64,000 nucleotides of DNA from Candidatus Staskawiczbacteria bacterium RIFCSPHIGHO2_01_FULL_39_25 (GTDB taxonomy: Bacteria > Patescibacteriota > Minisyncoccia > Minisyncoccales > Staskawiczbacteraceae), in NCBI GenBank assembly GCA_001820095.1, contig MHOO01000004.1, positions 1,749 through 65,748 on the forward strand, written 5' to 3'. This document shows, piece by piece, positions 1,761 through 47,030 of this stretch (positions within the stretch are counted from its first letter, which is position 1; every line of letters begins with the position of its first letter). The position numbers were made by a program, and so were the translations under genes. The notes under the pieces are model-generated. The model was not told where the DNA came from. It worked only from the letters and a program-made list of their open reading frames with translations, and ran no database searches.

Positions 1761-2648
1761 ATGGAAGAAAAAGTAGGCAATAAAGAAGGCGACCAACCTA
1801 AGGTTTTGAATTTTACTGGAGAGGAATATTTGGAAGTCGGAGAGATTGCCAAACCATTTTGGGAAAAAGGAGTTTCCGAAAATTTGCCAAAGTTTGTTAT
1901 TTATATGGGAGGGGTCGGTTCTGGAAAAACAACTATGCGGAGGCATCATCAGTCAAGCGGCTATGTGCATTTTGATTTTGGAGAAATTTGCATAGCAATG
2001 GAAAAAGGATTTGGTAAAGATAATCCAAAGTTACCGAATTATGAACTCTTGGCTGGCTCTATGATTTTACAAGAAAGCGTAGAAGCCAAAAAGAACATCG
2101 TGATTGAAATTATTGGTGACGATGAAAAACTATTCATTCCTGTCATAAAAAAAATGAAGGAGATTGGGTATGAAACCTCTCTCCAATTTATTGCGTGTAA
2201 ACCCGAAGACGCATATGGGCGTCACTTAAAGGCTGTAGAAGAAGATAAAGATTATATCTCTTCTTTTTATACGCAAGAAGCTACCTTATCGTTCTTTTAC
2301 GAACAACTTCAATTAGGGAAAATGCCCGAAGCCGTAGAAAAGGATAAAAAATACTTAGTAAAAGTTGATGATAACTTTCACCCTATGGATACAGGTGAAG
2401 CATATGACGACAAGACCTATTCATCATTGGAAGAAGCAGTTAAGAGATGTAAAGAAATAACCATTGACAGCCTTATGCATTCCTATAAGAAGGGGATAAA
2501 TGCAAGTGAACTGTTAGAACAATGGATGGCATTCGGAGATGACCCGTTTGTTTATACTGGAGAAGGAGATTTGCCATTCTCTGCAAGAGATTTTGTTACA
2601 GAAGAATTATGCCTCTACATCATCAAAGAAATGGAAAATATAGAATAA
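1761..2648 (+). CDS. P-loop kinase-like protein (zeta-toxin/AAA-type N-domain) with an unknown C-terminal domain
   Basis: Walker A GGVGSGKTT near residue 50, and a hhhhD-type Walker B (IVIEIIGDD). AAATTATG start context. C-terminal 100 aa unassigned. Confidence 0.5.
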   Translation: MEEKVGNKEGDQPKVLNFTGEEYLEVGEIAKPFWEKGVSENLPKFVIYMGGVGSGKTTMRRHHQSSGYVHFDFGEICIAMEKGFGKDNPKLPNYELLAGSMILQESVEAKKNIVIEIIGDDEKLFIPVIKKMKEIGYETSLQFIACKPEDAYGRHLKAVEEDKDYISSFYTQEATLSFFYEQLQLGKMPEAVEKDKKYLVKVDDNFHPMDTGEAYDDKTYSSLEEAVKRCKEITIDSLMHSYKKGINASELLEQWMAFGDDPFVYTGEGDLPFSARDFVTEELCLYIIKEMENIE

Positions 2649-2650
2649 TT

Positions 2651-2873
2651 TGCTATACTCTACTTGGAATAGCCAGAGTTGATATTTTTGGGCATTCGGC
2701 TCAAAACATTGCTGTGTAATAAGTCCGTCATCCGCCTTTGTGCGGTGGATTTGCAAAGTTTGCAAAAGGTGCGGTTAAAAGTGGCGGTGGCTTACGGGTC
2801 TATCAAGAGTGCTACTCCAAAAAAGATTTTATTTTAGAAAAATATTAAAGGCCTTCCATTGGCCTTTTTTTGT
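2651..2873 (+). ncRNA. candidate ORF-less transcript: extended -10 TGcTATACT (2651..2659) to terminator (2848..2873)
   Basis: I found no ATG between about 2666 and 2850. There are internal CCGC..GCGG and TTTGCAAA palindromes. The terminator is AAAGGCC-ttccatt-GGCCTTT plus a T-run. Confidence 0.3.
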
Positions 2874-3051
2874 TTGGAATATGCGAAAATGCGTCTCGGG
2901 CGCGAGAGCGCAACGGAGATACCGCGGAAGGCCAAGGAAATGTATTTGGAAATAGAAATTACAATGAGATAAATAGGTTGAAATTTATGTCAAAAAGGAG
3001 TAAATTAAAGTAATTTCCCATCAAAATCTCCGCTAAAAGTAGGGAATAGTG

Positions 3052-3077
3052 AATACGCAAGACGCCTTGCGTATTCA
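3052..3077. repeat. 26-nt hairpin repeat AATACGCAAGACGCCTTGCGTATTCA, left copy
   Basis: Identical copy at 8816..8841. 10-bp stem with a 4-nt loop. The two copies bracket the R-M gene block. Confidence 0.8.
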
Positions 3078-3147
3078 AAGAGATGAATGGGGGGGTTGGG
3101 TGGTGCGTGGTCGGAGTAAAATCGTCAAAAAATGGTAAAATAGGAAT

Positions 3148-4905
3148 ATGAAAATAAAAGATTTGCCAAAAATTGATCGGCCAAGGGAAAAATTCCTTGA
3201 GAAGGGTTCAGATGCATTGACCAATAGCGAACTTTTGGCTATTTTGCTTGGCAGTGGAATAAAAGGAACGAATGTAAAAGTATTGTCCCAAAAGATCATC
3301 AAGAAATTTGGAGATAACCTGGTAAATGTTTCGGTTGAGGATTTAATGAAAATCTCAGGAATTGGAGAAGCCAAAGCTTTGCAAATCGCGTCCACTATGG
3401 CTTTAGCTAAAAGAATTTTTGATAAACAAAACTCGTTAGATAATTTAATTTTATCCGCGCAGGATGCGATAGATCTTGTATCGGATTTAAGAGATAAAAA
3501 GCAGGAACACCTAATTTGCCTTTATTTAAATGCTCGTAACGCTTTAATAAAAAAAGAGATCATTTCAGTTGGCATATTAGATAAAAGTATTTTTCATCCT
3601 AGGGAAGTTTTTGCTCCAGGACTAGAAATGCGCGCCGCAGGCGTTATCCTTGTTCATAATCATCCTTCTGGCGATCCAAATCCAAGCCAGCAAGACAAAG
3701 AGGTGGCTAAAAGAACCGTTGAGGCTGGAAAATTAATGGGCATCAATGTTATTGATTTTCTCATCATCGCAAAAAATGGCTCGCACAGCTTGCTTGGTGA
3801 TATTAAAAATATCCAATTAATAGATACTGGGTATGTCGCCGAAGGGTTCCAGGCCTCTTTGTTTGATTTGCTTACGGATGCGGACAACTCTCCTTCTGGC
3901 GTGAAAAATTTAGACAAAAATAAAAAGAGCGTGAGCACTTTGCGATTTATGGATTTTTGTGCGGGGATTGGCGGTGGTCGTCTCGGTCTTGAGAATTTAG
4001 GCTTAGAATGTGTCGGATTTTCAGAGATAGATAAGCATTCTGAAAGAACTTATAGAGAATTCTTTGGAGATAGAGAAAAAAATTATGGAGATTTGATGAA
4101 AATCAATCCAGGTGATTTACCCAATTTTGAAGTGATGATCGCCGGCTTTCCGTGCCAAACTTTTTCTGTTATGGGTCAGAGGAAGGGCATGAAGGATGAT
4201 AGGGGGCAGGTTATTTATGGTTTAATTAAAATAATGAAAGGTAAAGATCTGCCCTACTTTATATTAGAAAATGTAAAAGGATTAGTGAATCATAATAATG
4301 GCAACTCATTTAGAGTGATTTTAGATGAGCTAGATAAAGCCGGATATAAAGTTTATCCCAAGGTTTTGAGTAGTTTGAATCATGGCGTGCCGCAAATGAG
4401 AGAAAGAATTTATTTTGTGGGTGTCAGAAAAGACCTTGTTAAAAAAGGCAGAGAATTCAGGTGGCCAGATCCCGTCAAAACTCCTAAGGTGGCAGAGTAT
4501 TTAATTGATACCAGCAAGCTAGAATTTAACGAAAGAAAAAGATCATACGAAACATTTATAAAATTTATAGATAATAAATATAACAAAGGATTATTTAAGG
4601 TGGATGATTTACTAAAGCAAGAATATTTAATACTAGATACTAGGCAGTCAGACTTAAGATTATACAACGATAAAGTGCCAACACTTAGAACGGGCCGACA
4701 TGGTATTTTGTATGTTAAAAATGGTAAATTTAGGAGTTTATCAGGTTTTGAGGCGTTGCTTTTGCAGGGCTTTCCTAAGAGATTAGCAGAGAAGACGAAA
4801 AATAAAATTAATGATATTTATTTATTAAGCCAGGCTGGAAACGCCATGACAGTTAGTACGATTGAGTCTATAGGAAAAAACTTGCTAAATTATATACAAA
4901 GCTAA
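3148..4905 (+). CDS. fusion protein: N-terminal RadC/JAB (JAMM) domain + C-terminal C5-cytosine DNA methyltransferase
   Basis: RadC-like N-terminus with HNHPSGDPNPSQQD. This is followed by the m5C motifs FCAGIGG (I), FPCQTFS (IV), ENVKGL (VI), QMRERIYFVG (VIII) and GNAMTV (X), all in one uninterrupted ORF. Confidence 0.85.
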   Translation: MKIKDLPKIDRPREKFLEKGSDALTNSELLAILLGSGIKGTNVKVLSQKIIKKFGDNLVNVSVEDLMKISGIGEAKALQIASTMALAKRIFDKQNSLDNLILSAQDAIDLVSDLRDKKQEHLICLYLNARNALIKKEIISVGILDKSIFHPREVFAPGLEMRAAGVILVHNHPSGDPNPSQQDKEVAKRTVEAGKLMGINVIDFLIIAKNGSHSLLGDIKNIQLIDTGYVAEGFQASLFDLLTDADNSPSGVKNLDKNKKSVSTLRFMDFCAGIGGGRLGLENLGLECVGFSEIDKHSERTYREFFGDREKNYGDLMKINPGDLPNFEVMIAGFPCQTFSVMGQRKGMKDDRGQVIYGLIKIMKGKDLPYFILENVKGLVNHNNGNSFRVILDELDKAGYKVYPKVLSSLNHGVPQMRERIYFVGVRKDLVKKGREFRWPDPVKTPKVAEYLIDTSKLEFNERKRSYETFIKFIDNKYNKGLFKVDDLLKQEYLILDTRQSDLRLYNDKVPTLRTGRHGILYVKNGKFRSLSGFEALLLQGFPKRLAEKTKNKINDIYLLSQAGNAMTVSTIESIGKNLLNYIQS

Positions 4906-4906
4906 T

Positions 4907-5686
4907 ATGAAACAAATGAAAAAGAAAAATATTCTCGAAATGATTGCTCGCGGTTCTAAAACCGCGAAAGGTGGATTTAAGAATGAAAAGGATGTTATTA
5001 AAAAGTTTAATAATTGGGAAAAAGACGCTATCGCACAAAAATGGCTTGAAATGATGAACTATGATTTAAAGGATATTGAATATGTAAAAGCAACTAAGAT
5101 ACGCGGCCACTATAAGGCTGATATTCAAGTTAGGATTCAAATAGTAATTAAATTAAAATCTCAGTCAGATATACAAAATCTACAAGTAAAATTAGTTAGC
5201 AACCCTCAGGGATTTAATCAGATAGATAAAAGATGGGTTGATAAATACGCAGAAATGTGGAGCATCCCCGTAGATATAGTGAAACTGCTAAAACTTTTTA
5301 CTGGGGAGGCAAAACCAATAAGCAGTAAAATAAAAGATTCAAGAAGAATGCTTTTAACTGAACTTAAAATAGTAGATCAGCAAAAGGTTATTGATTTCTT
5401 CGACCATAATAAAATTCTGGTTATTTCAGATTTATTAAAAGGAAGGGGTGAATTTTCCGCTGATTGGGTTTTAGTGATCTTGAAATTGAAAAAGGAAAGT
5501 AGGTGGGTTTTAAGATCAATTAATGAAGCGATGAATGTTTTTGGAGGTGGCGACGTCAGAATAACGTCGCAGGGAGGTTTGAAAATCGGTAAGATTGGAA
5601 TGCAAAGAAAGGGTGGAGATAATGGGAGAGACAGCGCTAAAATGCTTCAATTTAAAATTAATCCAATTGAGCTCTTCAAGAATTAA
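4907..5686 (+). CDS. putative type II restriction endonuclease partnered with the adjacent m5C methyltransferase
   Basis: It starts 2 nt after the MTase stop and is followed by vsr. K-A-D-I-Q-V block. The C-terminal tail ..AKMLQFK resembles my recollection of the MspI-type tail, which is weak evidence. Confidence 0.5.
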   Translation: MKQMKKKNILEMIARGSKTAKGGFKNEKDVIKKFNNWEKDAIAQKWLEMMNYDLKDIEYVKATKIRGHYKADIQVRIQIVIKLKSQSDIQNLQVKLVSNPQGFNQIDKRWVDKYAEMWSIPVDIVKLLKLFTGEAKPISSKIKDSRRMLLTELKIVDQQKVIDFFDHNKILVISDLLKGRGEFSADWVLVILKLKKESRWVLRSINEAMNVFGGGDVRITSQGGLKIGKIGMQRKGGDNGRDSAKMLQFKINPIELFKN

Positions 5687-39201: not shown

Positions 39202-42200
39202 ATGCTAAACTCTCCGTTTAAAAAATTCCTTTTCGTAAGCATTATAAGCGTACTGGCATTTTTTAATGCTGATTTAGCGTATGCGGCTTGTACAGCGGTG
39301 CCGACCATCACCAGTATTTCTCCATCGTCTAAAAATGCCGGAGATGCAACCTTTACCTTAACGGTCAACGGCACTAATTTTCTCAATAGCTCAAAAGTAA
39401 GGTTCAACGGCTCTGACAAGACCACTACCTATGTGTCTGCCACCCAACTGACTGCCGCTATTCCTTCATCAGATGTTTCCAGCGGGGGATCATATTCTGT
39501 TTCGGTGTTTAATCAGCCATCTTGTCGGGTTGTTACCGACAAGGAACCGTGGTCAATTATCATCTCACAAGACAGCAATTATCTTTATGTAGTTAATAAT
39601 GGCGATAATACCCTGCAAAAATTTAATACGTCTGATCTAAACCAAACAGTACCCCATGTTACTACAGATAACTATCCTCAATCGGTAGCTGTTTCGCATG
39701 ACGGTAAATATATCTATATAGTTAATGAAACCAATGAAACTCTTCAGAAATTTGATGCTGCCAATTTAAATTTATTGGCAAGCGCCACAACAGGTAAAAG
39801 TCCTCGATCTGTCGCTATTGCTCCTGATGGCAATTATGTATATGTTGCCAATTATACCAATAAAAAGGTCCAACAATTTTATACCCCGAATCTTAGCCTT
39901 TCAGAAAGTATTAATGCCGACGGCAATCCTACCGCGATAACTATTTCTCCCGACGGCAATTATTTATATATTGCTAGTTCTAATAAAAATAATATCCAAA
40001 AATTCAGTATTCCTAATTTGAATTTATTGCAGACTACGGCGCTTCTTGATGACTATGTACGGTCTCTTGTAGTTGCCCCCGACGGAAATTATGTATATGC
40101 GGTTGATTATTTCAACTTGAAAAAATTCAATGCCACAAACCTTAGTTTAGTAAAGAGTTCTAGCGGGGGAAGCCAATCGGATCCCGGCTATTCCATATCA
40201 GTATCTCCCGACGGCAATTATCTATATACTATTAACCCTATTACACCATCTATCAACAAATTTAGCGTTTCTGATTTAGGCTTAATTCTTAGTAATAATT
40301 TAGCCAGTCCTTATATATCGCCTCATTCAATTGCTATTTCTGCTGACGGAAATTTTATTTACGTTCTTTTTCTTAGCAAGGGAGTTACTAATAATCATCT
40401 TTTAATAAAAATTGATACTTCTACGTTAGCTTTTGAATCTGATGGAGGGAGTTCTAATGCCCAAACATTCACGGTTAATAATCCTCTCCCAACTACCACC
40501 TCAATCTCTCCAACCTCAAAAACTGCCGGAGAGCCGGATTTTACTCTCACCTTAAACGGCACTAATTTTATTTCAACATCAGTTATTTACCTTGGCAGCC
40601 TTGGATTAACGACTACGTATGTATCTGCCACCCAGCTAACTGCATCACTGCCAGTGCCTCAAGAAGGAACATATTCCATTACGGTGGTTAATCCAACCCC
40701 CGGCGGAGGCACCTCAAATGGACAAACGTTTACGGTAAATGCAGCTGACAATCCTGCGCCAACCACTACGAGCATTTCACCTGTGTCAAAGAACGTCGGA
40801 GACACGGCATTTACCCTCACCGTCAATGGCACTAATTTTATAGATGCCTCTGTAATAAAATTCAACGATTCAAACAGAACTACCACCTATATTAATTCTA
40901 CCAAAATAAGAACTACCATACCTGTCTCCGACCTTGCCACCGCAGGAACCTTTACTATCACGGTATTCAACCCAACCCCCGGCGGGGGAACCTCCAATGG
41001 GCAGACGCTTACGGTTAATAACCCGGTTCCTACTACCACAAGCATTTCACCATCATCAAAAATTATAGGGGATCCAGGATTTACTTTAACCGTAAATGGC
41101 ACTAAATTTGTTTCAACGTCCACTATTTATTTTGATAGCCTAGGGCTGGCTACTACGTATGTCTCTGCGACGCAATTAACTGCTGATATATCAACCCTGC
41201 CAGCTTTGGGAACCTATTCTATTACCGTGGTAAATCCCGCGCCGGGAGGAGGCACTTCAAATGCCCAAACATTCACGGTCAACAACCCTTTGCCGACTAC
41301 CACCTCAATCTCGCCTACATCAAAAAATGCAGGCGACACAAGCTTTACCCTCACCGTCAATGGCACTAATTTTATTTCAACATCTAAAGTAAGGTTTAGC
41401 GGCTCTGATAGAACTACTACCTATGTGTCTGCCACCCAGCTTACCGCTACCATTCCTGCTTCAGACCTTGCGACCGGTGGCACATTCAATATCACCGTTT
41501 TTAACCCCACTCCCGGCGGGGGAACCTCCAATGGGCAGACGTTTACGGTTAATAACCCAGTTCCAACTACTACAAGTATTTCACCGAATTCGGCAACGCA
41601 AAACGACCCCAGTTTTACCCTCACCGTCAATGGCACTAATTTTGTTGCTGCATCTAAGGTAAGGTTCAACGGTTCTGACCGAACTACTACCTATATCTCT
41701 GCAACCCAGCTTACCGCTACCATTCCTGCTTCAGATCTTACGAGCGCAGGAACTTTCACCATCACGGTATTCAACTTAACCCCCGGGGGAGGGACTTCCA
41801 ATGGACAGACATTCACGGTTGTTGAAGCAAACCCAACGGCGCCAACTACTACCAGTATTTCTCCGACATCAAAAACAACCGGAAGCCCGGCTTTCACGCT
41901 TACCGTCAATGGTACTGGTTTTATCCCTTCATCCAAAGTTCAGTTTAATCTTTCAGATAGAACAACAACGTTTGTTTCCCCGGTTCAATTGACAGCCGCT
42001 ATACCTGCATCAGATTTGACGACGGGAGGAATATATAGGATTACCGTGGATAATGGAATCGGAGGATTATCAAACGCCCAGTCATTCTTTGTTAATAATC
42101 CGGTGCCGGTAACTATAAATATTTTGCCAAGTTCGGCGTTTGTAAACGGTCCAAGTTTTGTCTTAACGGTCAACGGTTCTAATTTTGTATCTTCTTCCAA

Positions 42201-43359
42201 GGTCAGGTTTAACGAATCAGATAGGACTACCACATTTGTCTCTGCCAGCCAGCTTACTGCTTCTATTCCGTCATCCGACCTTGAAACTGCAGGAACGTAT
42301 CCTATTACGGTATTTAATCCAACTCCTGCCGGAGGAATATCTAATTCCCAAAACTTCACGGTTGTTCCGGGGGCAAATCCGCTGCCCACTACCATCAGCA
42401 TTTCTCCAAATTCGGCAACCGTAGGCGATCCTGGTTTTACCCTTACGGTCAATGGCACTAATTTTATATCTACGTCTACCATTTACTTTGAAAGTCTAGG
42501 GCTGGCAACCACCTATATTTCTTCAACCCAGTTAACCACATTCATATCATCAACCCCCGGCGCGGGAACTTATTCTGTAACCGTGGTAAACCCCGCGCCC
42601 GGCGGAGGCACCTCTAATGCCCAAACATTTACCGTCAACGATGCTGATACCGAAGGCCCGACGATAAGCGATTTAGCGGTGTCCAGCGATTATTGCCCCA
42701 TTGTGCCCGCTACGGGAATTGCTTACATATCTTGGACGTATAATAATAGCAATGGCAGATACGAAAATCAATTCCAAATGCAAATAGATGATGATCCTGA
42801 TTTCAGTTCTCCTGAAGTCAATAGAACATTTTCTAATCTTTCCAATCCTCCGGGGAGCGTAAACCAGCAATCGGTTTTTATTGTTACGGGGTTTGAACCA
42901 GATTCCTTAGTTTATGGTTACACCTATTACGGGCGCGCAAAGGTATGGGAAACTGATCCTGATACCGGAGGCCCCGGCGCCGATTCTGGTTGGGTATATA
43001 ATACCGGATCTGCTCCGGGCTCGCCCTATGCTACGCCGCCGCATCCTGGCCCATATGCTTCATTTACTTTCTCTCCAAGCAATCCGGCTCCGGGCAATGC
43101 CGTATCATTTGATAATAATTCCACGTGCTATGATTTTAGCGATCCTGTTGATTGCCAATCATATCTTTGGGATTTTGGTGATGGCGGTTCAAGTACTCAA
43201 GAAAATCCTACTCACGTCTATAATACCAATGGATCGTTTAATGTGGATTTAACCGCTTCTGATGAATTGGGGAGCTGCCAAACCAATAAAACGGTTCCGG
43301 TAAGCGCTTCAAGCAATAAGAAATTGCCTCAATTCAAAGAAGTGTCTCCATTGGAATAG
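39202..43359 (+). CDS. giant secreted/surface protein: signal peptide, 9 IPT/TIG-like repeats, YVTN-type beta-propeller, C-terminal PKD-like domain
   Basis: FTLTVNGTNF...TTTYVSATQLTA...NPTPGGGTSN.QTFTV occurs nine times. (S/A)PDGNY(V/L)Y(V/I) blades span 39540..40440. WDFGDGGSS..HVY..G.F.V lies near the C-terminus. Confidence 0.85.
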   Translation: MLNSPFKKFLFVSIISVLAFFNADLAYAACTAVPTITSISPSSKNAGDATFTLTVNGTNFLNSSKVRFNGSDKTTTYVSATQLTAAIPSSDVSSGGSYSVSVFNQPSCRVVTDKEPWSIIISQDSNYLYVVNNGDNTLQKFNTSDLNQTVPHVTTDNYPQSVAVSHDGKYIYIVNETNETLQKFDAANLNLLASATTGKSPRSVAIAPDGNYVYVANYTNKKVQQFYTPNLSLSESINADGNPTAITISPDGNYLYIASSNKNNIQKFSIPNLNLLQTTALLDDYVRSLVVAPDGNYVYAVDYFNLKKFNATNLSLVKSSSGGSQSDPGYSISVSPDGNYLYTINPITPSINKFSVSDLGLILSNNLASPYISPHSIAISADGNFIYVLFLSKGVTNNHLLIKIDTSTLAFESDGGSSNAQTFTVNNPLPTTTSISPTSKTAGEPDFTLTLNGTNFISTSVIYLGSLGLTTTYVSATQLTASLPVPQEGTYSITVVNPTPGGGTSNGQTFTVNAADNPAPTTTSISPVSKNVGDTAFTLTVNGTNFIDASVIKFNDSNRTTTYINSTKIRTTIPVSDLATAGTFTITVFNPTPGGGTSNGQTLTVNNPVPTTTSISPSSKIIGDPGFTLTVNGTKFVSTSTIYFDSLGLATTYVSATQLTADISTLPALGTYSITVVNPAPGGGTSNAQTFTVNNPLPTTTSISPTSKNAGDTSFTLTVNGTNFISTSKVRFSGSDRTTTYVSATQLTATIPASDLATGGTFNITVFNPTPGGGTSNGQTFTVNNPVPTTTSISPNSATQNDPSFTLTVNGTNFVAASKVRFNGSDRTTTYISATQLTATIPASDLTSAGTFTITVFNLTPGGGTSNGQTFTVVEANPTAPTTTSISPTSKTTGSPAFTLTVNGTGFIPSSKVQFNLSDRTTTFVSPVQLTAAIPASDLTTGGIYRITVDNGIGGLSNAQSFFVNNPVPVTINILPSSAFVNGPSFVLTVNGSNFVSSSKVRFNESDRTTTFVSASQLTASIPSSDLETAGTYPITVFNPTPAGGISNSQNFTVVPGANPLPTTISISPNSATVGDPGFTLTVNGTNFISTSTIYFESLGLATTYISSTQLTTFISSTPGAGTYSVTVVNPAPGGGTSNAQTFTVNDADTEGPTISDLAVSSDYCPIVPATGIAYISWTYNNSNGRYENQFQMQIDDDPDFSSPEVNRTFSNLSNPPGSVNQQSVFIVTGFEPDSLVYGYTYYGRAKVWETDPDTGGPGADSGWVYNTGSAPGSPYATPPHPGPYASFTFSPSNPAPGNAVSFDNNSTCYDFSDPVDCQSYLWDFGDGGSSTQENPTHVYNTNGSFNVDLTASDELGSCQTNKTVPVSASSNKKLPQFKEVSPLE

Positions 43360-45234: not shown

Positions 45235-45603
45235 ATGTTAACTATTAGGCTTACTCGCAAGGGCAAAAAAAACCAGCCATTTTTCAAAGTGGTGGTTATT
45301 GATAAAAAGAGATCTGCAAAAGGGGGAAGGGCAGTGGAAGTTTTAGGATATGTTGACCCTTTAACAAAAAGGAAATCTTTGAAAAAAGAACGGATTTTGC
45401 ATTGGATAAAAAATGGAGCACAGCCATCAGCCACGATTCATAATTTATTAATCAATGAAAAGATTATTGAGGGCAAAAAAATCCATGTAGCTAAGGCAAA
45501 GAAAAGCAAAGAAGTCCAACCTACATCCGCTGCATCAGCGCCCGCAGCTCAACCTGCTGAAAAACCAGCAGAAAAGGCAGTTGAGCCGCCGATTCTTCCT
45601 TAA
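45235..45603 (+). CDS. rpsP: 30S ribosomal protein S16 with an A/P-rich C-terminal extension
   Basis: MLTIRLTRKGKKNQPFFKVVV.D.....GR..E.LGY.DP. Confidence 0.93.
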   Translation: MLTIRLTRKGKKNQPFFKVVVIDKKRSAKGGRAVEVLGYVDPLTKRKSLKKERILHWIKNGAQPSATIHNLLINEKIIEGKKIHVAKAKKSKEVQPTSAASAPAAQPAEKPAEKAVEPPILP

Positions 45604-45634
45604 CAAGAACTGCTTAGAGGTAAATTTTTGCATA

Positions 45635-45664
45635 TTGACAAAGGCTATGCTTTTTTGATAAGAT
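45635..45664 (+). promoter_or_regulatory. promoter TTGACA-18-TGaTAAGAT
   Basis: -35 at 45635..45640, and an extended -10 with TG at 45656..45657 and TAAGAT at 45659..45664. Confidence 0.5.
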
Positions 45665-45670
45665 ACGGTT

Positions 45671-46090
45671 AGATAGCTCATTTAATTAAGAGACAGAAAA
45701 AAGTAGCTCTGTTAATTGATCTCCAGAAAATTGTTCATCTCTAAGGTGGACAGTTTTCTGGAGACAGTTAATAGAGTACCTTGGCGCGGCATATGACCTC
45801 GTGCCAGGGTGCGCAAGATACTCTCTTGTGCTGTATAGGGGACGTTCCTCCTCTTTGACGGAAGGATCGTCTTAAAGAGAAGCGCGCGCTTAAGGTGTCC
45901 TCTCCTGTGAGGAGCTTTAGAGGCAAGCTAGCTTCTAAGGATTCGGATATCCTTCAAAGCCGCCTTGGCGACTCTTGTCGCATCCCCCTAAAATCTCTAT
46001 TACTGTCTCCTTTGTTCTTCTTCATTTCTCCGCTCCGGCGGGCTTTATTCATAGGCTGCAACTACTCTGTTGTGGCCTATATTTTTATAT
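45671..46090 (+). ncRNA. candidate structured ncRNA of about 420 nt, family unknown
   Basis: It runs from the promoter to the terminator (GGCTGCAAC-tactct-GTTGTGGCC plus TATATTTTT, 46054..46090). At least 8 hairpins. Visibly GC-richer than the flanks. Only junk-like ORFs. Confidence 0.5.
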
Positions 46091-46141
46091 TAAGGACATG
46101 CAAACAGATCTATTGATTATGCATAATTTGTGTTATATAAT

Positions 46142-46317
46142 ATCTTTGAATTACGAAATGCCCATTTAAAACGTTTTTTCGGGTCTTTTCCCAGAATTTG
46201 GGCTATAAATTCGCTATAATTTTCAGGCGGACGCGTTGCGTAAGCCTGAAAATTCTATCAAATTTCTATCTCCAAATTCTGGAAAAATACCGCGAAAGCA
46301 TTTCGTAAATCAAAGAT
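46142..46317. mobile_element. MITE-like palindromic element, copy M4 (176 bp)
   Basis: TIRs ATCTTTGAATTACGAAATGC / GCATTTCGTAAATCAAAGAT. Core AAATTCGCTATAATTTT-CAGGCGGACGCGTTGCGTAAGCCTG-AAAATTCTATCAAATTT. Confidence 0.7.
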
Positions 46318-46421
46318 ATTTATTTGATTTTAAGAACAAGTGAATTGGGCCCCCACACCATAAATTCAAAAAATTTTGGTGTAGGGGTGAAGTAGAACGC
46401 TGGAGTGTACATAACTTTGGT

Positions 46422-46632
46422 GGGCTCATAGTTCAGTGGTAGAACGCTGTCTTGCACAGCTTTTATGGGGGGCCCGTAGTTCAGTGGTAGAACGCTGTCC
46501 TGATAAGACAGAGGTCAAAGGTCCGATTCCTTTCGGGCCCACCATAAAAGCTGGAAAATTAACATTTAGAAAAATAAACAGAAAATTTTCCTAAGACAGA
46601 GGTCGAAGGTCCGATTCCTTCTGAGCCCACCA
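46422..46632 (+). tRNA. interrupted tRNA: 5' half 46422..46456 and 3' half 46593..46629 plus CCA, with a 136-nt intervening sequence in the anticodon loop (anticodon GCA/Cys most parsimonious, ambiguous)
   Basis: Acceptor GGGCTCA/TGAGCCC is 7/7 paired. The D arm and anticodon stem CTGTC/GACAG match the inner tRNA. T arm GAAGG-TCCGATT-CCTTC. The leader/trailer helix CATAACTTTGGT/ACCAAAGTTATG is 12 bp. Confidence 0.55.
46470..46544 (+). tRNA. tRNA-Ile(GAU)-like, 72 nt plus encoded CCA, nested inside the interrupted tRNA
   Basis: GGGCCCG-TA-GTTC-AGTGGTA-GAAC-G-CTGTC-CTGATAA-GACAG-AGGTC-AAAGG-TCCGATT-CCTTT-CGGGCCC-A-CCA. The T loop is atypical (C at position 55). Confidence 0.7.
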
Positions 46633-46670
46633 AAGTTATGAGCTTTATATAAAAGTAAATTTTAAAAAAT

Positions 46671-47030
46671 ATGTTTGCAAAAATTAATAAAAGAGTATTA
46701 ATTATTGGCGCAATATCCTTAGTCGCGTTCTTAGCTATTGGATTAGCTTTTTATCTGTATTTATTTTCAGCAAAACCAGAAGCGGAAGATACTAATATCG
46801 GTCACGTAGAAATCCCATCAGAAGATGAAGATTCAAATGCATCGCCTTCAGAAAGCGGGATAGAAATTATTGAAAAAGAGGGTTCTCCCAAGGGAGGTTT
46901 AACTATTTGCGCTGATAAGTGCGGAAATGGAATCTGTGAAAATAAAGAAGAGGATTTAAAATGCAAGGACGGCAGCCCAAATTGCGTATGTCCTGAAAGC
47001 CTTCAAGTGTGTCCGCAAGACTGTAAATAG
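46671..47030 (+). CDS. membrane-anchored Cys-rich small protein
   Basis: N-terminal TM (VLIIGAISLVAFLAIGLAFYLYLF), an acidic linker and a C-terminal cluster of 10 Cys. Terminator at 47045..47085. Confidence 0.55.
   Translation: MFAKINKRVLIIGAISLVAFLAIGLAFYLYLFSAKPEAEDTNIGHVEIPSEDEDSNASPSESGIEIIEKEGSPKGGLTICADKCGNGICENKEEDLKCKDGSPNCVCPESLQVCPQDCK

What the first reader, a model, noticed from the sequence alone, without database searches (positions are those of the whole stretch)
46410..46640. A complete tRNA gene nested in the anticodon loop of a paralogous tRNA, each clamped by its own 12-bp leader/trailer helix
- **Inner gene:** 46470..46541 folds as a canonical 72-nt tRNA (anticodon loop CTGATAA, so GAU; encoded CCA).
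- **Outer gene:** the inner tRNA lies between two halves of a second tRNA, 46422..46451 and 46595..46629 plus CCA.
- **Evidence for folding:** the D arm, anticodon stem, variable loop and T loop are identical in both. The acceptor and T stems differ only by compensatory pairs (GGGCTCA/TGAGCCC against GGGCCCG/CGGGCCC; GAAGG/CCTTC against AAAGG/CCTTT). This argues that both are maintained as folded tRNAs.
- **Intervening sequence (136 nt):** it consists of the helix CAGCTTTTATGG/CCATAAAAGCTG clamping the inner tRNA, plus an AT-rich hairpin GGAAAATT..AATTTTCC.
- **Outer clamp:** the outer tRNA is clamped the same way by CATAACTTTGGT/ACCAAAGTTATG, which pairs across the CCA.
- **What it is not:** the insert is too short and lacks the paired elements of a group I intron, and no bulge-helix-bulge is evident.
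- **Other details:** both tRNAs share the unusual T loop TCCGATT. A further tRNA fragment (AGTAGAACGCTGG, 46391..46403) sits just upstream.
- **Possible readings:** a tRNA-carrying intron, a split tRNA released by RNase P/Z, or a tRNA-derived mobile insertion that killed the outer gene.
Basis: partly seen in the sequence, partly recalled or inferred. Interest (0 to 1): 0.9.

Follow-up and report, generated by a model that had tools for sequence, protein, structure and literature searches.

The report
Nested replacement copies of one tRNA gene
A groundwater bacterium's isoleucine tRNA gene was cut open in its anticodon loop by a small insert that carries a working copy of the same tRNA, and this self-repairing "Russian doll" arrangement, not described before, recurs in many related bacteria.

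Summary
A complete tRNA-Ile(GAU) with encoded CCA (46470-46544) lies between the two halves of a second tRNA (46422-46451 and 46592-46629). Each layer is closed by its own 12-bp leader/trailer helix. The 331 bp are identical in 10 independent assemblies, so this is not a mis-join.

The outer gene is also tRNA-Ile(GAU). Its 68 exon bases match exactly an intact, un-nested tRNA-Ile at the orthologous locus of relatives. In the window, loop bases CTGA have become TTGC, so no excision can restore GAU. Only the inner gene can work. An upstream 11-mer marks a third, older layer.

The same nesting occurs in at least 15 of 120 sampled Patescibacteria species, and once in tRNA-Ala. Inner genes are always perfect, while most outer genes are damaged. 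tRNA alleles swap inner and outer roles between species. The clamp helices occur only in nests. Three relatives carry a GIY-YIG nuclease gene at the locus.

It is not a group I intron, a BHB intron, a classical integrase site or a repeated MITE.

Best reading: serial gene replacement by a self-complementing tRNA cassette, with the outer gene as a relic. How the cassette inserts is inferred, not shown.

The parts
46392..46411 (+). Relic of an outermost (oldest) tRNA-Ile copy. It is a D-arm/anticodon-stem fragment, GTAGAACGCTGGAGTGTACA.
   Evidence: The 11-mer GTAGAACGCTG occurs 3 times in the window against 0.03 expected. The 20-nt stretch is 80% identical to the equivalent stretch of the outer gene, junction included, with a spacing of 47/48 nt (family D3).
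46410..46421 (+). Left arm of the outer clamp (CATAACTTTGGT). It pairs with A73, CCA and the trailer.
   Evidence: pair I1: 19 nt, 100% complementary, continuous with the acceptor stem. The arm is unique in the window.
46422..46455 (+). Outer tRNA-Ile 5' exon: positions 1-31 (46422-46451) plus the mutated loop remnant TTGC (46452-46455).
   Evidence: The 30 exon bases match intact tRNA-Ile(GAU) in L131-L134 exactly, but there the loop reads CTGA.
46456..46591 (+). Inserted cassette of 136 nt: left arm, complete tRNA-Ile with CCA, right arm, A-rich spacer.
   Evidence: Boundaries come from comparison with the intact orthologous genes. The same cassette layout and the same junction are found in L017.
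46457..46468 (+). Left arm of the inner clamp (CAGCTTTTATGG).
   Evidence: pair I2. The arm is unique in the window.
46470..46544 (+). Inner tRNA-Ile(GAU) with encoded CCA. This is the only functional gene of the locus.
   Evidence: ARAGORN. Rfam tRNA, 72.7 bits. All 21 stem pairs are Watson-Crick and the loop is CTGATAA. It is 75/75 identical to the inner gene of L017.
46542..46553 (+). Right arm of the inner clamp (CCATAAAAGCTG). It overlaps the CCA.
   Evidence: pair I2, and the fold.
46554..46591 (+). A-rich spacer with a local hairpin (GGAAAATT/AATTTTCC), ending in ..TCC just before the outer 3' exon.
   Evidence: It is partly alignable with the spacers of L017 and L134, which end ..GCTCC|TAAGACAG. 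The hairpin itself is not conserved.
46592..46632 (+). Outer tRNA-Ile 3' exon: positions 36-73 (TAAGACAG...TGAGCCCA) plus CCA.
   Evidence: 38/38 identical to the intact genes of L131-L134. It is 90% identical to the inner 3' half (family D1).
46629..46640 (+). Right arm of the outer clamp (ACCAAAGTTATG).
   Evidence: pair I1.

Best explanation
The locus is a three-layer nest of tRNA-Ile(GAU) genes, built by successive gene replacement. Only the innermost copy (46470-46544) is a working gene.

**Shown**
- The outer tRNA is the former resident tRNA-Ile(GAU) gene of this lineage. Relatives have it intact at the same locus.
- It was split at anticodon positions 34-36 by a 136-nt cassette. The cassette holds an inverted-repeat arm, a complete tRNA-Ile(GAU) with CCA, the second arm, and an A-rich spacer.
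- The split gene has lost its anticodon and cannot be restored by any excision.
- The outer gene has the same arm-tRNA-CCA-arm architecture, and a fragment of a still older copy lies just upstream. The process has therefore happened at least twice here.
- The same nesting recurs in many Patescibacteria. There, inner genes are perfect and outer genes are eroded.

**Inferred**
- The cassette spreads by recombination into resident tRNA-Ile genes. Because it carries a full replacement gene, disrupting an essential gene costs the host nothing.
- The highly conserved tRNA core probably serves as the homology arms.
- In some lineages a GIY-YIG nuclease probably supplies the double-strand break, as in intronless homing.
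- At the RNA level the whole nest is read through from an upstream promoter.
- Each clamp helix, flush with its acceptor stem, makes its layer close on itself. The inner pre-tRNA can then fold apart from the near-identical outer halves and be released by RNase P plus 3' processing, perhaps after RNase III cuts the 19-20 bp helices.
- The outer halves are by-products.
For: 1. **Real sequence.** The 331 bp are identical in 10 independent assemblies.
2. **Identity of the outer gene.**
   - Its exons are 68/68 identical to intact, un-nested tRNA-Ile(GAU) in L132 and L133.
   - That gene is followed by the ortholog of the window's 119-aa gene (33% identity, E = 5e-15).
   - L134 shows the same.
3. 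**Lost anticodon.** The window reads CTGTC-TTGC[136 nt]TAA-GACAG where the intact gene reads CTGTC-CTGA-TAA-GACAG. The only loops obtainable by excision are TTGCTAA, TTCCTAA or TTGCACA.
4. **Third layer.**
5. **Recurrence.**
   - 39 of 117 tRNA-Ile(GAU) genes have partial self-copies in their flanks.
   - At least 15 of 120 species show two-sided nests.
   - tRNA-Ala is nested the same way in L078.
6. **Inner against outer.**
   - All 11 inner genes checked have 21/21 Watson-Crick stem pairs and the loop CTGATAA.
   - After removal of inserts, only 3 of 13 relatives' outer genes keep every stem pair and a GAU loop.
   - Many carry extra hairpin inserts.
7. **No interrupted gene without a rescuer.** Every locus with an interrupted gene also holds an intact one, except L115.
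8. **Movement of alleles.**
   - Alleles GGGCACA and GGGTGTG swap inner and outer roles between L056 and L094.
   - The window's outer allele is the inner gene in L131 and the sole gene in L132.
9. **Collapse products.** Those expected from recombination between the direct repeats exist in L134 and L115.
10. **Clamps are specific to nests.**
    - Leader/trailer duplex energy averages -17.6 kcal/mol in nests (9 of 9 at or below -10).
    - It averages -5.6 in un-nested genes, the same as shuffled controls.
    - In silico, shuffling the inner clamp arms lowers the probability of the inner acceptor stem from 0.98 to 0.58.
11. **Nuclease genes.** GIY-YIG ORFs lie inside or next to rearranged tRNA-Ile loci in L036, L023 and L129. 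A tRNA-gene-targeting GIY-YIG homing enzyme is known, T4 SegB (PMC2330249).
Against: - No nuclease, integrase, transposase or reverse transcriptase lies in the 64-kb window. Mobility is therefore inferred only from comparison.
- The clamp arms of the window and L017 are unrelated in sequence although the nest seems to share one origin. A simple 'cassette with fixed ends' does not explain this.
- The window's outer exons show no point substitutions, while the spacers shared with L017 have diverged strongly. This is unexpected for an old neutral relic.
- A homing nuclease that cuts intact tRNA-Ile DNA should also cut the inner copy.
- Outer acceptor stems are mostly still paired (at least 6 of 7 pairs in 11 of 14 aligned outer genes). 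That could mean some constraint acts on them.
- There are no RNA data.
Confidence: 0.62

Rival explanations
1. Co-opted scaffold. The nest arose by insertion, but the outer halves are now kept by selection. Their pairing (acceptor stem plus clamp, 19 bp) forms a processing or stability platform for the precursor of the essential inner tRNA, comparable to an rRNA processing stalk cut by RNase III.
For: - The window's outer exons are 68/68 identical to functional alleles, while the spacers shared with L017 are barely alignable.
- Outer acceptor stems keep at least 6 of 7 pairs in 11 of 14 aligned outer genes.
- The closing helix of the class-i inserts covaries strongly: 98.6% paired, 6 of 6 pairs with double changes, 0 of 500 shuffles as high.
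- The clamps give 19-20 bp helices.
- The nested fold has z = -8.5.
Against: - Most relatives have plain tRNA-Ile genes with no outer halves and no clamp (76 of 113 genes classified).
- Outer D arms, T arms and anticodon stems are often broken or carry inserts.
- L017's outer acceptor stem is down to 3 Watson-Crick and 2 G-U pairs.
- The oldest layer in the window has decayed to about 20 nt.
- rnc lies upstream of this tRNA only in the window, not in L017, L132 or L134.
Confidence: 0.15
2. Purely local rearrangement. Partial tandem duplication, replication slippage or unequal crossing-over between neighbouring tRNA-Ile copies produced the nest. No mobile cassette or foreign DNA was involved.
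For: - Three 5' portions follow each other at a regular 47/48-nt spacing (family D3).
- Inner and outer acceptor stems are identical in several relatives: L025, L031 and L065.
- Recombination products between the repeats clearly occur in L134 and L115.
Against: - Tandem duplication gives head-to-tail copies, not a copy inside a copy with inverted-repeat flanks.
- In the window, inner and outer are different alleles with three compensatory acceptor pairs and one T-stem pair changed. Each is found on its own in other genomes: the outer in L132-L134, the inner in L017.
- Alleles swap roles between L056 and L094.
- The same insertion point (35/36 or 36/37) recurs in distant species.
Confidence: 0.12
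3. Functional tRNA-bearing intron or split tRNA. The 136-143 nt are removed, or the halves are joined after release of the inner tRNA. One transcript would then yield two working tRNAs.
For: - The outer stems are perfect (21 of 21 pairs).
- In L021, L025 and L094, removing the inserts would give a perfect tRNA-Ile(GAU).
- L115 has no intact tRNA-Ile at the locus unless 51 nt are removed.
- Group I introns at positions 33/34 to 36/37 are common in Patescibacteria tRNAs (PMC13011429).
Against: - In the window and in L017, A35 and the CTGA are gone, so no junction restores GAU.
- Possible anticodons would be GCU, CCU or GCA on an Ile-type body with A73 and a short variable loop.
- There is no group I signal and no BHB geometry.
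- ARAGORN in intron mode finds no outer gene.
- No RtcB or EndA gene is in the window.
- In 120 species, an interrupted tRNA-Ile always comes with an intact one inside it. That would be unnecessary if splicing worked.
Confidence: 0.04
4. Assembly artefact: a mis-join of two tandem tRNA genes.
For: The locus contains repeats of 21-41 nt.
Against: - The sequence is identical in 10 assemblies from different samples, assemblers and centres, including k=141 megahit contigs.
- A homologous nest is present in an unrelated MAG, L017.
Confidence: 0.01

Closest known systems
Group I introns in the anticodon loops of Patescibacteria tRNA genes (Nakagawa et al. 2026, PMC13011429)
   Same: - Same phylum.
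- Same target region, positions 33/34 to 36/37 of the anticodon loop.
- The interrupted gene is missed by standard tRNA finders.
   Different: - There is no ribozyme core: no Intron_gpI hit. Only about 60 nt of the insert are not tRNA.
- The exons cannot be rejoined into a valid anticodon.
- Function is rescued by a whole tRNA gene carried inside the insert, not by splicing.
Archaeal and algal disrupted tRNA genes: split, multi-intron and permuted genes with BHB motifs (PMC4390854, PMC3978253)
   Same: - tRNA halves are separated by intervening sequence.
- Complementary leader and trailer helices bring the ends together.
- In relatives, inserts sit at several positions of the gene.
   Different: - The host is a bacterium.
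- No bulge-helix-bulge forms.
- No splicing endonuclease or ligase gene was seen.
- The separated halves are relics, not the functional gene.
Integrative elements that target tRNA genes and carry a replacement 3' segment in attP (my own knowledge: Williams 2002, Nucleic Acids Res)
   Same: - The insertion lands in a tRNA gene, often the anticodon loop, and is made harmless because the element brings tRNA sequence with it.
- Direct repeats of the 3' part result (family D1; L134).
   Different: - The element carries a complete tRNA rather than a 3' segment, so the 5' half is duplicated as well.
- The insert is 136 nt with no integrase.
- The flanks are inverted repeats flush with the acceptor stem.
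Free-standing GIY-YIG homing endonuclease SegB in the phage T4 tRNA gene cluster (PMC2330249)
   Same: - A GIY-YIG nuclease is tied to tRNA genes and drives preferential inheritance of neighbouring tRNA genes through double-strand-break repair.
- GIY-YIG ORFs sit at nested tRNA-Ile loci in L036, L023 and L129.
   Different: - No such ORF lies in this window.
- No cleavage has been shown.
- SegB homing does not leave a gene inside its homolog.
Palindromic selfish inserts inside genes, for example Rickettsia palindromic elements and MITEs (my own knowledge)
   Same: - These are short inserts without an ORF, bounded by inverted repeats and tolerated inside genes.
- GC-rich palindromic hairpins also populate the outer genes of relatives.
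   Different: - The arms here are unique in the window and differ between the two layers and between species.
- There is no target-site duplication.
- The cargo is the very gene that is disrupted.

Membership tests
Group I intron in a tRNA | Catalytic core (P3-P9) detectable by the Rfam Intron_gpI covariance model | tested here: not met
   There is no hit at gathering threshold or at E <= 10 in 45500-46750. There is none in the nested inserts of 8 relatives, although the model did find an intron in the 16S rRNA of L031.
Group I intron in a tRNA | Insertion in the anticodon loop | tested here: met
   The insert replaces or follows positions 34-35.
Group I intron in a tRNA | Exon ligation restores a valid tRNA with the correct anticodon | tested here: not met
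   CTGA has become TTGC. The possible loops are TTGCTAA, TTCCTAA or TTGCACA, never CTGATAA.
BHB (archaeal-type) tRNA intron or split tRNA | Two 3-nt bulges separated by a 4-bp helix at the exon-intron junctions | tested here: not met
   In the minimum-free-energy and centroid folds, an 8-bp extended anticodon stem is followed by a three-way junction whose only unpaired linker is CAC.
BHB (archaeal-type) tRNA intron or split tRNA | Splicing endonuclease (EndA) and RNA ligase (RtcB) encoded by the organism | tested here: inconclusive
   Neither is found among the window's ORFs of at least 180 aa or the Pfam-annotated neighbours. The rest of the genome could not be read.
Integrase-type integration at a tRNA gene | Direct repeat of the tRNA 3' portion (attL/attR) flanking the element | tested here: met
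   A 41-nt direct repeat at 90% identity, 46504-46544 against 46592-46632 (family D1).
Integrase-type integration at a tRNA gene | Only the 3' part is duplicated, and an integrase gene lies in or next to the element | tested here: not met
   The 5' half is duplicated too (family D2). There is no integrase in the window.
MITE or palindromic repeat element | Terminal inverted repeats shared by many copies in the genome | tested here: not met
   Inverted repeats are present, but each arm occurs only at this locus in 64 kb. The two layers have different arms.
Intronless homing cassette (free-standing homing endonuclease) | Homing endonuclease gene adjacent to the transferred segment | tested here: not met
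   tblastn with the GIY-YIG ORF of L036 finds nothing in the window. The feature is met in relatives L036, L023 and L129.
Intronless homing cassette (free-standing homing endonuclease) | Cleavage of the cassette-free allele and conversion by double-strand-break repair | not testable with these tools
   This needs enzyme assays or crosses. The only support is comparative: an empty allele in L132 and filled alleles in the window and L017.
Bacterial tRNA-Ile(GAU) gene (inner copy) | Cloverleaf with GAU anticodon, A37, A38 and A73, and a high tRNA model score | tested here: met
   72.7 bits. ARAGORN calls Ile(gat). All 21 stem pairs are Watson-Crick.

The most novel reading that the evidence does not exclude
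Patescibacteria harbour a previously unrecognised class of selfish element. It is a small structured cassette that carries a complete tRNA gene and homes into the anticodon loop of the resident gene for the same isoacceptor, so the element replaces the essential gene it destroys. Repeated invasion builds nested genes. The invasions may be driven by tRNA-gene-cutting GIY-YIG nucleases. The flanking helices are RNA or single-stranded-DNA structures needed for insertion or for release of the cargo tRNA. One subclass has a sequence-conserved internal loop that matches no known RNA family.
Probability: 0.35. Interest if true: 0.85.

Novelty: new variant of a known kind. Interest (0 to 1): 0.75.

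Why it matters
- **A third way to make an insertion harmless.** Until now, an insertion in an essential tRNA gene was known to be neutralised in two ways. Introns splice themselves out, and integrative elements bring a replacement 3' segment. Bringing a complete spare gene would be a third way.
- **A natural series for how tRNA genes become disrupted.** In bacteria it provides empty, filled, doubly filled, collapsed and decaying loci. This bears on the long-running debate over the origin of split and intron-containing tRNA genes.
- **Annotation.** Outer halves and multi-layer relics are invisible to tRNA finders. They can be mistaken for introns or for missing tRNAs in reduced genomes.
- **Testable leads.** The relatives yield two:
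  - small GIY-YIG nucleases at tRNA loci;
  - two unknown conserved RNA or DNA motifs.

Tried and rejected
**Hypotheses tested and rejected**
- *Assembly artefact:* rejected by 10 identical assemblies.
- *Group I intron:* no covariance-model hit in the window or in 8 relatives' inserts.
- *Any other Rfam family in 45500-46750:* only chance microRNA-like hairpin hits.
- *BHB intron:* the fold lacks the motif.
- *ARAGORN in intron mode:* it does not call the outer gene.
- *Outer gene as tRNA-Arg(CCU), tRNA-Cys(GCA) or tRNA-Ser(GCU):* considered from the loop remnants. Dropped once the intact allele showed CTGATAA.
- *Clamp as a general pre-tRNA trait of these bacteria:* rejected, because un-nested genes match shuffled controls.
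- *Clamp arms as a repeated MITE family:* the arms are unique in the window.
- *Genes for integrase, transposase, reverse transcriptase, RtcB, EndA or GIY-YIG in the window:* none found.

**Searches that led nowhere**
- *Synteny through the 119-aa protein:* no homologs beyond the protein itself.
- *Synteny through the transporter:* only L134 was informative. The other hits have different synteny, with tRNA-Glu upstream.
- *Viral contig scans* for the shared 21-mer, the inner allele and the T-loop element core: nothing relevant.
- *Literature searches* for nested or disrupted tRNA genes in Patescibacteria: only the group I intron papers turned up.
Full report
**1. The observation**

ARAGORN and Rfam find one tRNA in the whole 64-kb window: tRNA-Ile(GAU) at 46470-46541, with encoded CCA to 46544, scoring 72.7 bits.

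Around it lie the two halves of a second tRNA, each layer with its own inverted-repeat arms:
- GGGCTCA...CTGTC at 46422-46451, and TAAGACAG...TGAGCCCA-CCA at 46592-46632.
- Outer arm plus acceptor stem, 46410-46428 against 46622-46640: 19 nt, 100% complementary.
- Inner arm plus acceptor stem, 46457-46476 against 46534-46553: 20 nt, 95% complementary.

The 241-nt stretch folds into the nested double cloverleaf at -101.5 kcal/mol. The z-score is -8.5, and none of 200 shuffles is as stable.

**2. Not an artefact**

The window comes from a Candidatus Staskawiczbacteria MAG (Patescibacteria; GCA_001822005.1, contig MHPD01000033.1). The 331 bp at 46330-46660 are 100% identical in ten contigs. These come from NCBI, several ENA megahit assemblies and two JGI metagenomes.

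**3. What the outer gene is**

I scanned metagenomes for the outer 5' half, using a pattern that excludes the window's own junction. Three loci came back.
- **L132 and L133** carry an intact, un-nested tRNA whose sequence is exactly the two outer exons joined through CTGA. That is a 68/68 match, with loop CTGATAA. The gene is followed by the ortholog of the window's 119-aa cysteine-rich membrane protein (33% identity, E = 5e-15).
- **L134**, reached through the neighbouring transporter (70% identity), has the same tRNA upstream of the same small protein.

The outer gene is therefore the resident tRNA-Ile(GAU) of this lineage, not a different isoacceptor. Each allele functions on its own elsewhere.

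**4. The outer gene is disabled**

The intact gene reads CTGTC-CTGA-TAA-GACAG. The window reads CTGTC-TTGC-[136 nt]-TAA-GACAG.
- No choice of junction gives CTGATAA. The obtainable loops are TTGCTAA, TTCCTAA or TTGCACA.
- These would sit on an Ile-type body with A73 and a short variable loop.
- The closest relative with the same nest, L017, also lacks A35.
- ARAGORN in intron mode does not recognise an outer gene.

**5. A third layer**

GTAGAACGCTG occurs three times in the window, all at this locus, against 0.03 expected by chance.
- The first copy (46392-46411) is 80% identical over 20 nt to the outer gene's copy, including the non-tRNA junction TG(T/C)ACA.
- The three copies are spaced 47 and 48 nt apart.
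- The outer gene itself has the cassette architecture of arm, tRNA, CCA and arm. The intact orthologs in L132 and L134 have no such clamp.

I read this as follows. The outer gene was once the inner gene of a still older copy, of which about 20 nt remain.

**6. The arrangement is a family**

A 21-mer shared by both layers turned out to be the conserved 5' core of Patescibacteria tRNA-Ile(GAU).
- Self-comparison of each tRNA with its own flanks found partial self-copies for 39 of 117 tRNA-Ile genes.
- By BLAST criteria, 9 are two-sided nests. Reading the sequences shows at least 15: L017, L021, L025, L031, L042, L050, L056, L064, L065, L094, L096, L100, L113, L125 and L128, with L058, L070 and L035 likely.
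- The insertion point is 35/36 or 36/37 in nearly all. In L131 it lies in the D loop.
- tRNA-Ala(UGC) is nested the same way in L078, at 34/35.

**7. Inner against outer**

- All 11 inner genes examined have 21 of 21 Watson-Crick stem pairs and the loop CTGATAA.
- I removed obvious inserts from the outer genes of 13 relatives. Only L021, L025 and L094 then keep every stem pair and a GAU loop.
- The remaining outer genes have broken stems, deleted bases or destroyed T arms. Many carry extra GC-rich palindromic hairpins.
- Among loci not cut by a contig end, only L115 lacks an intact tRNA-Ile.
- An interrupted tRNA-Ile is therefore always accompanied by a complete one inside it. That is what one expects if the interruption is not spliced out.

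**8. Signs of movement**

- Alleles GGGCACA and GGGTGTG are outer and inner in L056, and inner and outer in L094.
- The window's outer allele is the inner gene of a different outer gene in L131, and the only gene in L132.
- The window's inner allele is 75/75 identical in L017, in a different genomic neighbourhood.
- Collapse products expected from recombination between the direct repeats exist:
  - a tRNA followed by a downstream 3' half in L134;
  - an upstream 5' half followed by a hybrid tRNA in L115.
- Small ORFs with a GIY-YIG domain (E = 6e-16 and 7e-13) lie inside the nest in L036, 4 nt after the tRNA in L023, and 75 nt before it in L129.
- Phage T4 SegB shows that a free-standing GIY-YIG enzyme can target tRNA genes and drive their inheritance (PMC2330249).
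- The window itself has no such ORF.

**9. The clamps**

- Leader/trailer duplex energy averages -17.6 kcal/mol for nested inner genes; all 9 are at or below -10.
- For 76 un-nested genes it averages -5.6, the same as shuffled leaders. The clamp is therefore a property of nests, not of pre-tRNAs in these bacteria.
- In a thermodynamic model, shuffling the inner arms lowers the probability of the inner acceptor stem from 0.98 to a mean of 0.58.
- In a second class of insert, found in at least 10 species, the closing helix covaries strongly. It is 98.6% paired, all 6 pairs have changes on both sides, and 0 of 500 shuffles reach this. It encloses a sequence-conserved internal loop, TTCGYTCG opposite CTCRCTG. 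I chose the register of that alignment by hand.
- The window's insert lacks this loop motif.

**10. Comparison with known systems**

- *Group I intron:* no model hit, too little non-tRNA sequence, and the exons cannot be restored.
- *BHB intron or split tRNA:* no bulge-helix-bulge, and no EndA or RtcB in the window.
- *Integrase-type integration:* the 3' direct repeat is present, but the 5' half is duplicated as well and no integrase is nearby.
- *MITE:* the arms are unique in the window and differ between layers.
- *Literature:* full-text searches found the recent work on group I introns in Patescibacteria tRNAs (PMC13011429). They found nothing on a tRNA nested in its own homolog.

**11. Most likely mechanism**

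- *Shown:* insertion of a complete tRNA-Ile cassette into the resident tRNA-Ile gene, loss of the outer anticodon, repetition of the process, and recurrence across species.
- *Inferred:*
  - The cassette spreads by recombination, using the conserved tRNA core as homology.
  - It is harmless because it replaces the gene it breaks.
  - In some lineages a GIY-YIG nuclease makes the break.
  - In the transcript, each clamp makes its layer close on itself, so the inner pre-tRNA folds and is released by RNase P and 3' processing.
  - The 19-20 bp helices could be RNase III sites.
- The rnc gene 1.3 kb upstream of the nest is probably a coincidence, because that synteny is absent in L017, L132 and L134.

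**12. What remains unexplained**

- The window's outer exons carry no point substitutions, although the nest seems to predate the split from L017, whose spacers and arms are almost unalignable.
- The arms of the two species are unrelated in sequence, yet both pair.
- A nuclease that cuts intact tRNA-Ile DNA should also cut the inner copy.

These points keep two alternatives alive: a co-opted scaffold role for the outer halves (0.15) and a purely local rearrangement (0.12). A spliced, functional outer tRNA is very unlikely here (0.04).

Noticed in passing
L030, L045, L070, L078, L129, L130, L034 (downstream of tRNA-Ile, Leu, Val and Ala genes): A second recurrent small element of about 110-170 nt follows the tRNA. 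It ends in an exact 18-20 nt copy of the tRNA 3' end, starting in the T loop. It has a conserved core (GGAGCATGYGCGAG...GGTGGTTAGCCCGARGAGCGCGACGGCGCGAYGAGAGGCRAGAC) and, near its start, a stretch complementary to the T arm. It matches no Rfam family.
   Followed up: partly
L078, tRNA-Ala(UGC) at 2077-2150 and its flanks: tRNA-Ala is nested in an outer tRNA-Ala at anticodon position 34/35, with a 14-bp clamp (CGATGGCTACTGGC/GCCAGTAGCCATCG). A GC-rich hairpin insert lies in the outer 3' half.
   Followed up: partly
L036 (minus strand, 3700-3939), L023 5277-5540, L129 464-655: ORFs of 80-88 aa with a GIY-YIG domain lie inside or directly beside rearranged tRNA-Ile loci. Three of the five such ORFs found in 0.87 Mb lie right beside the tRNA-Ile or inside its nest.
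   Followed up: partly
L021, L056, L058, L064, L065, L096, L113, L125, L128, L134 (outer tRNA-Ile halves): GC-rich palindromic hairpins (CCCGCC...GGCGGG, CCCCGACG...CGTCGGGG) are inserted at recurring positions of the outer genes: 21/22, 43/44, 53/54 and the D loop. None was seen in an intact tRNA.
   Followed up: no
L115 164-290: This is the only locus without an intact tRNA-Ile. It reads outer 5' half, CCCCAGTAGTAAAATTT, a second 5' half with a non-matching acceptor strand, then a 3' half that matches the first 5' half. Only removal of 51 nt would give a valid tRNA.
   Followed up: no
116 tRNA-Ile(GAU) genes in L011-L134: Position 55 of the T loop is C instead of the near-universal U (TCCGATT) in 60 of 116 genes. 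CCA is encoded in 25 of 116. T4 SegB recognises the DNA motif GGTTCRANTCC, and this variant breaks that motif.
   Followed up: no
window 45604-46410: About 800 nt of non-coding DNA lie between rpsP and the nest, which is unusual for a compact genome. It holds long hairpins (about 45702-45810 and 46151-46310) and a GC hairpin at 46343-46388. A 51-nt patch is 90% identical to sequence upstream of the nest in L131.
   Followed up: partly
L031 2180-2293 and 2494-2620 (minus strand), next to the 16S rRNA: A group II intron domain D1-D4 model scores above its gathering score (48 bits against 35) in a Parcubacteria MAG. A group I intron lies inside the 16S gene. The 2026 survey reported no group II introns in complete Patescibacteria genomes.
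   Followed up: no
window 1761-5686: A Zeta-toxin-like ORF is followed by a fusion of a RadC/JAB domain to a C5 cytosine methylase, and then by an R.HinP1I-type restriction endonuclease.
   Followed up: no
window 39202-43359: A 1385-aa protein carries many TIG/IPT repeats together with beta-propeller (lactonase-like) and PKD domains. It is probably a surface protein.
   Followed up: no
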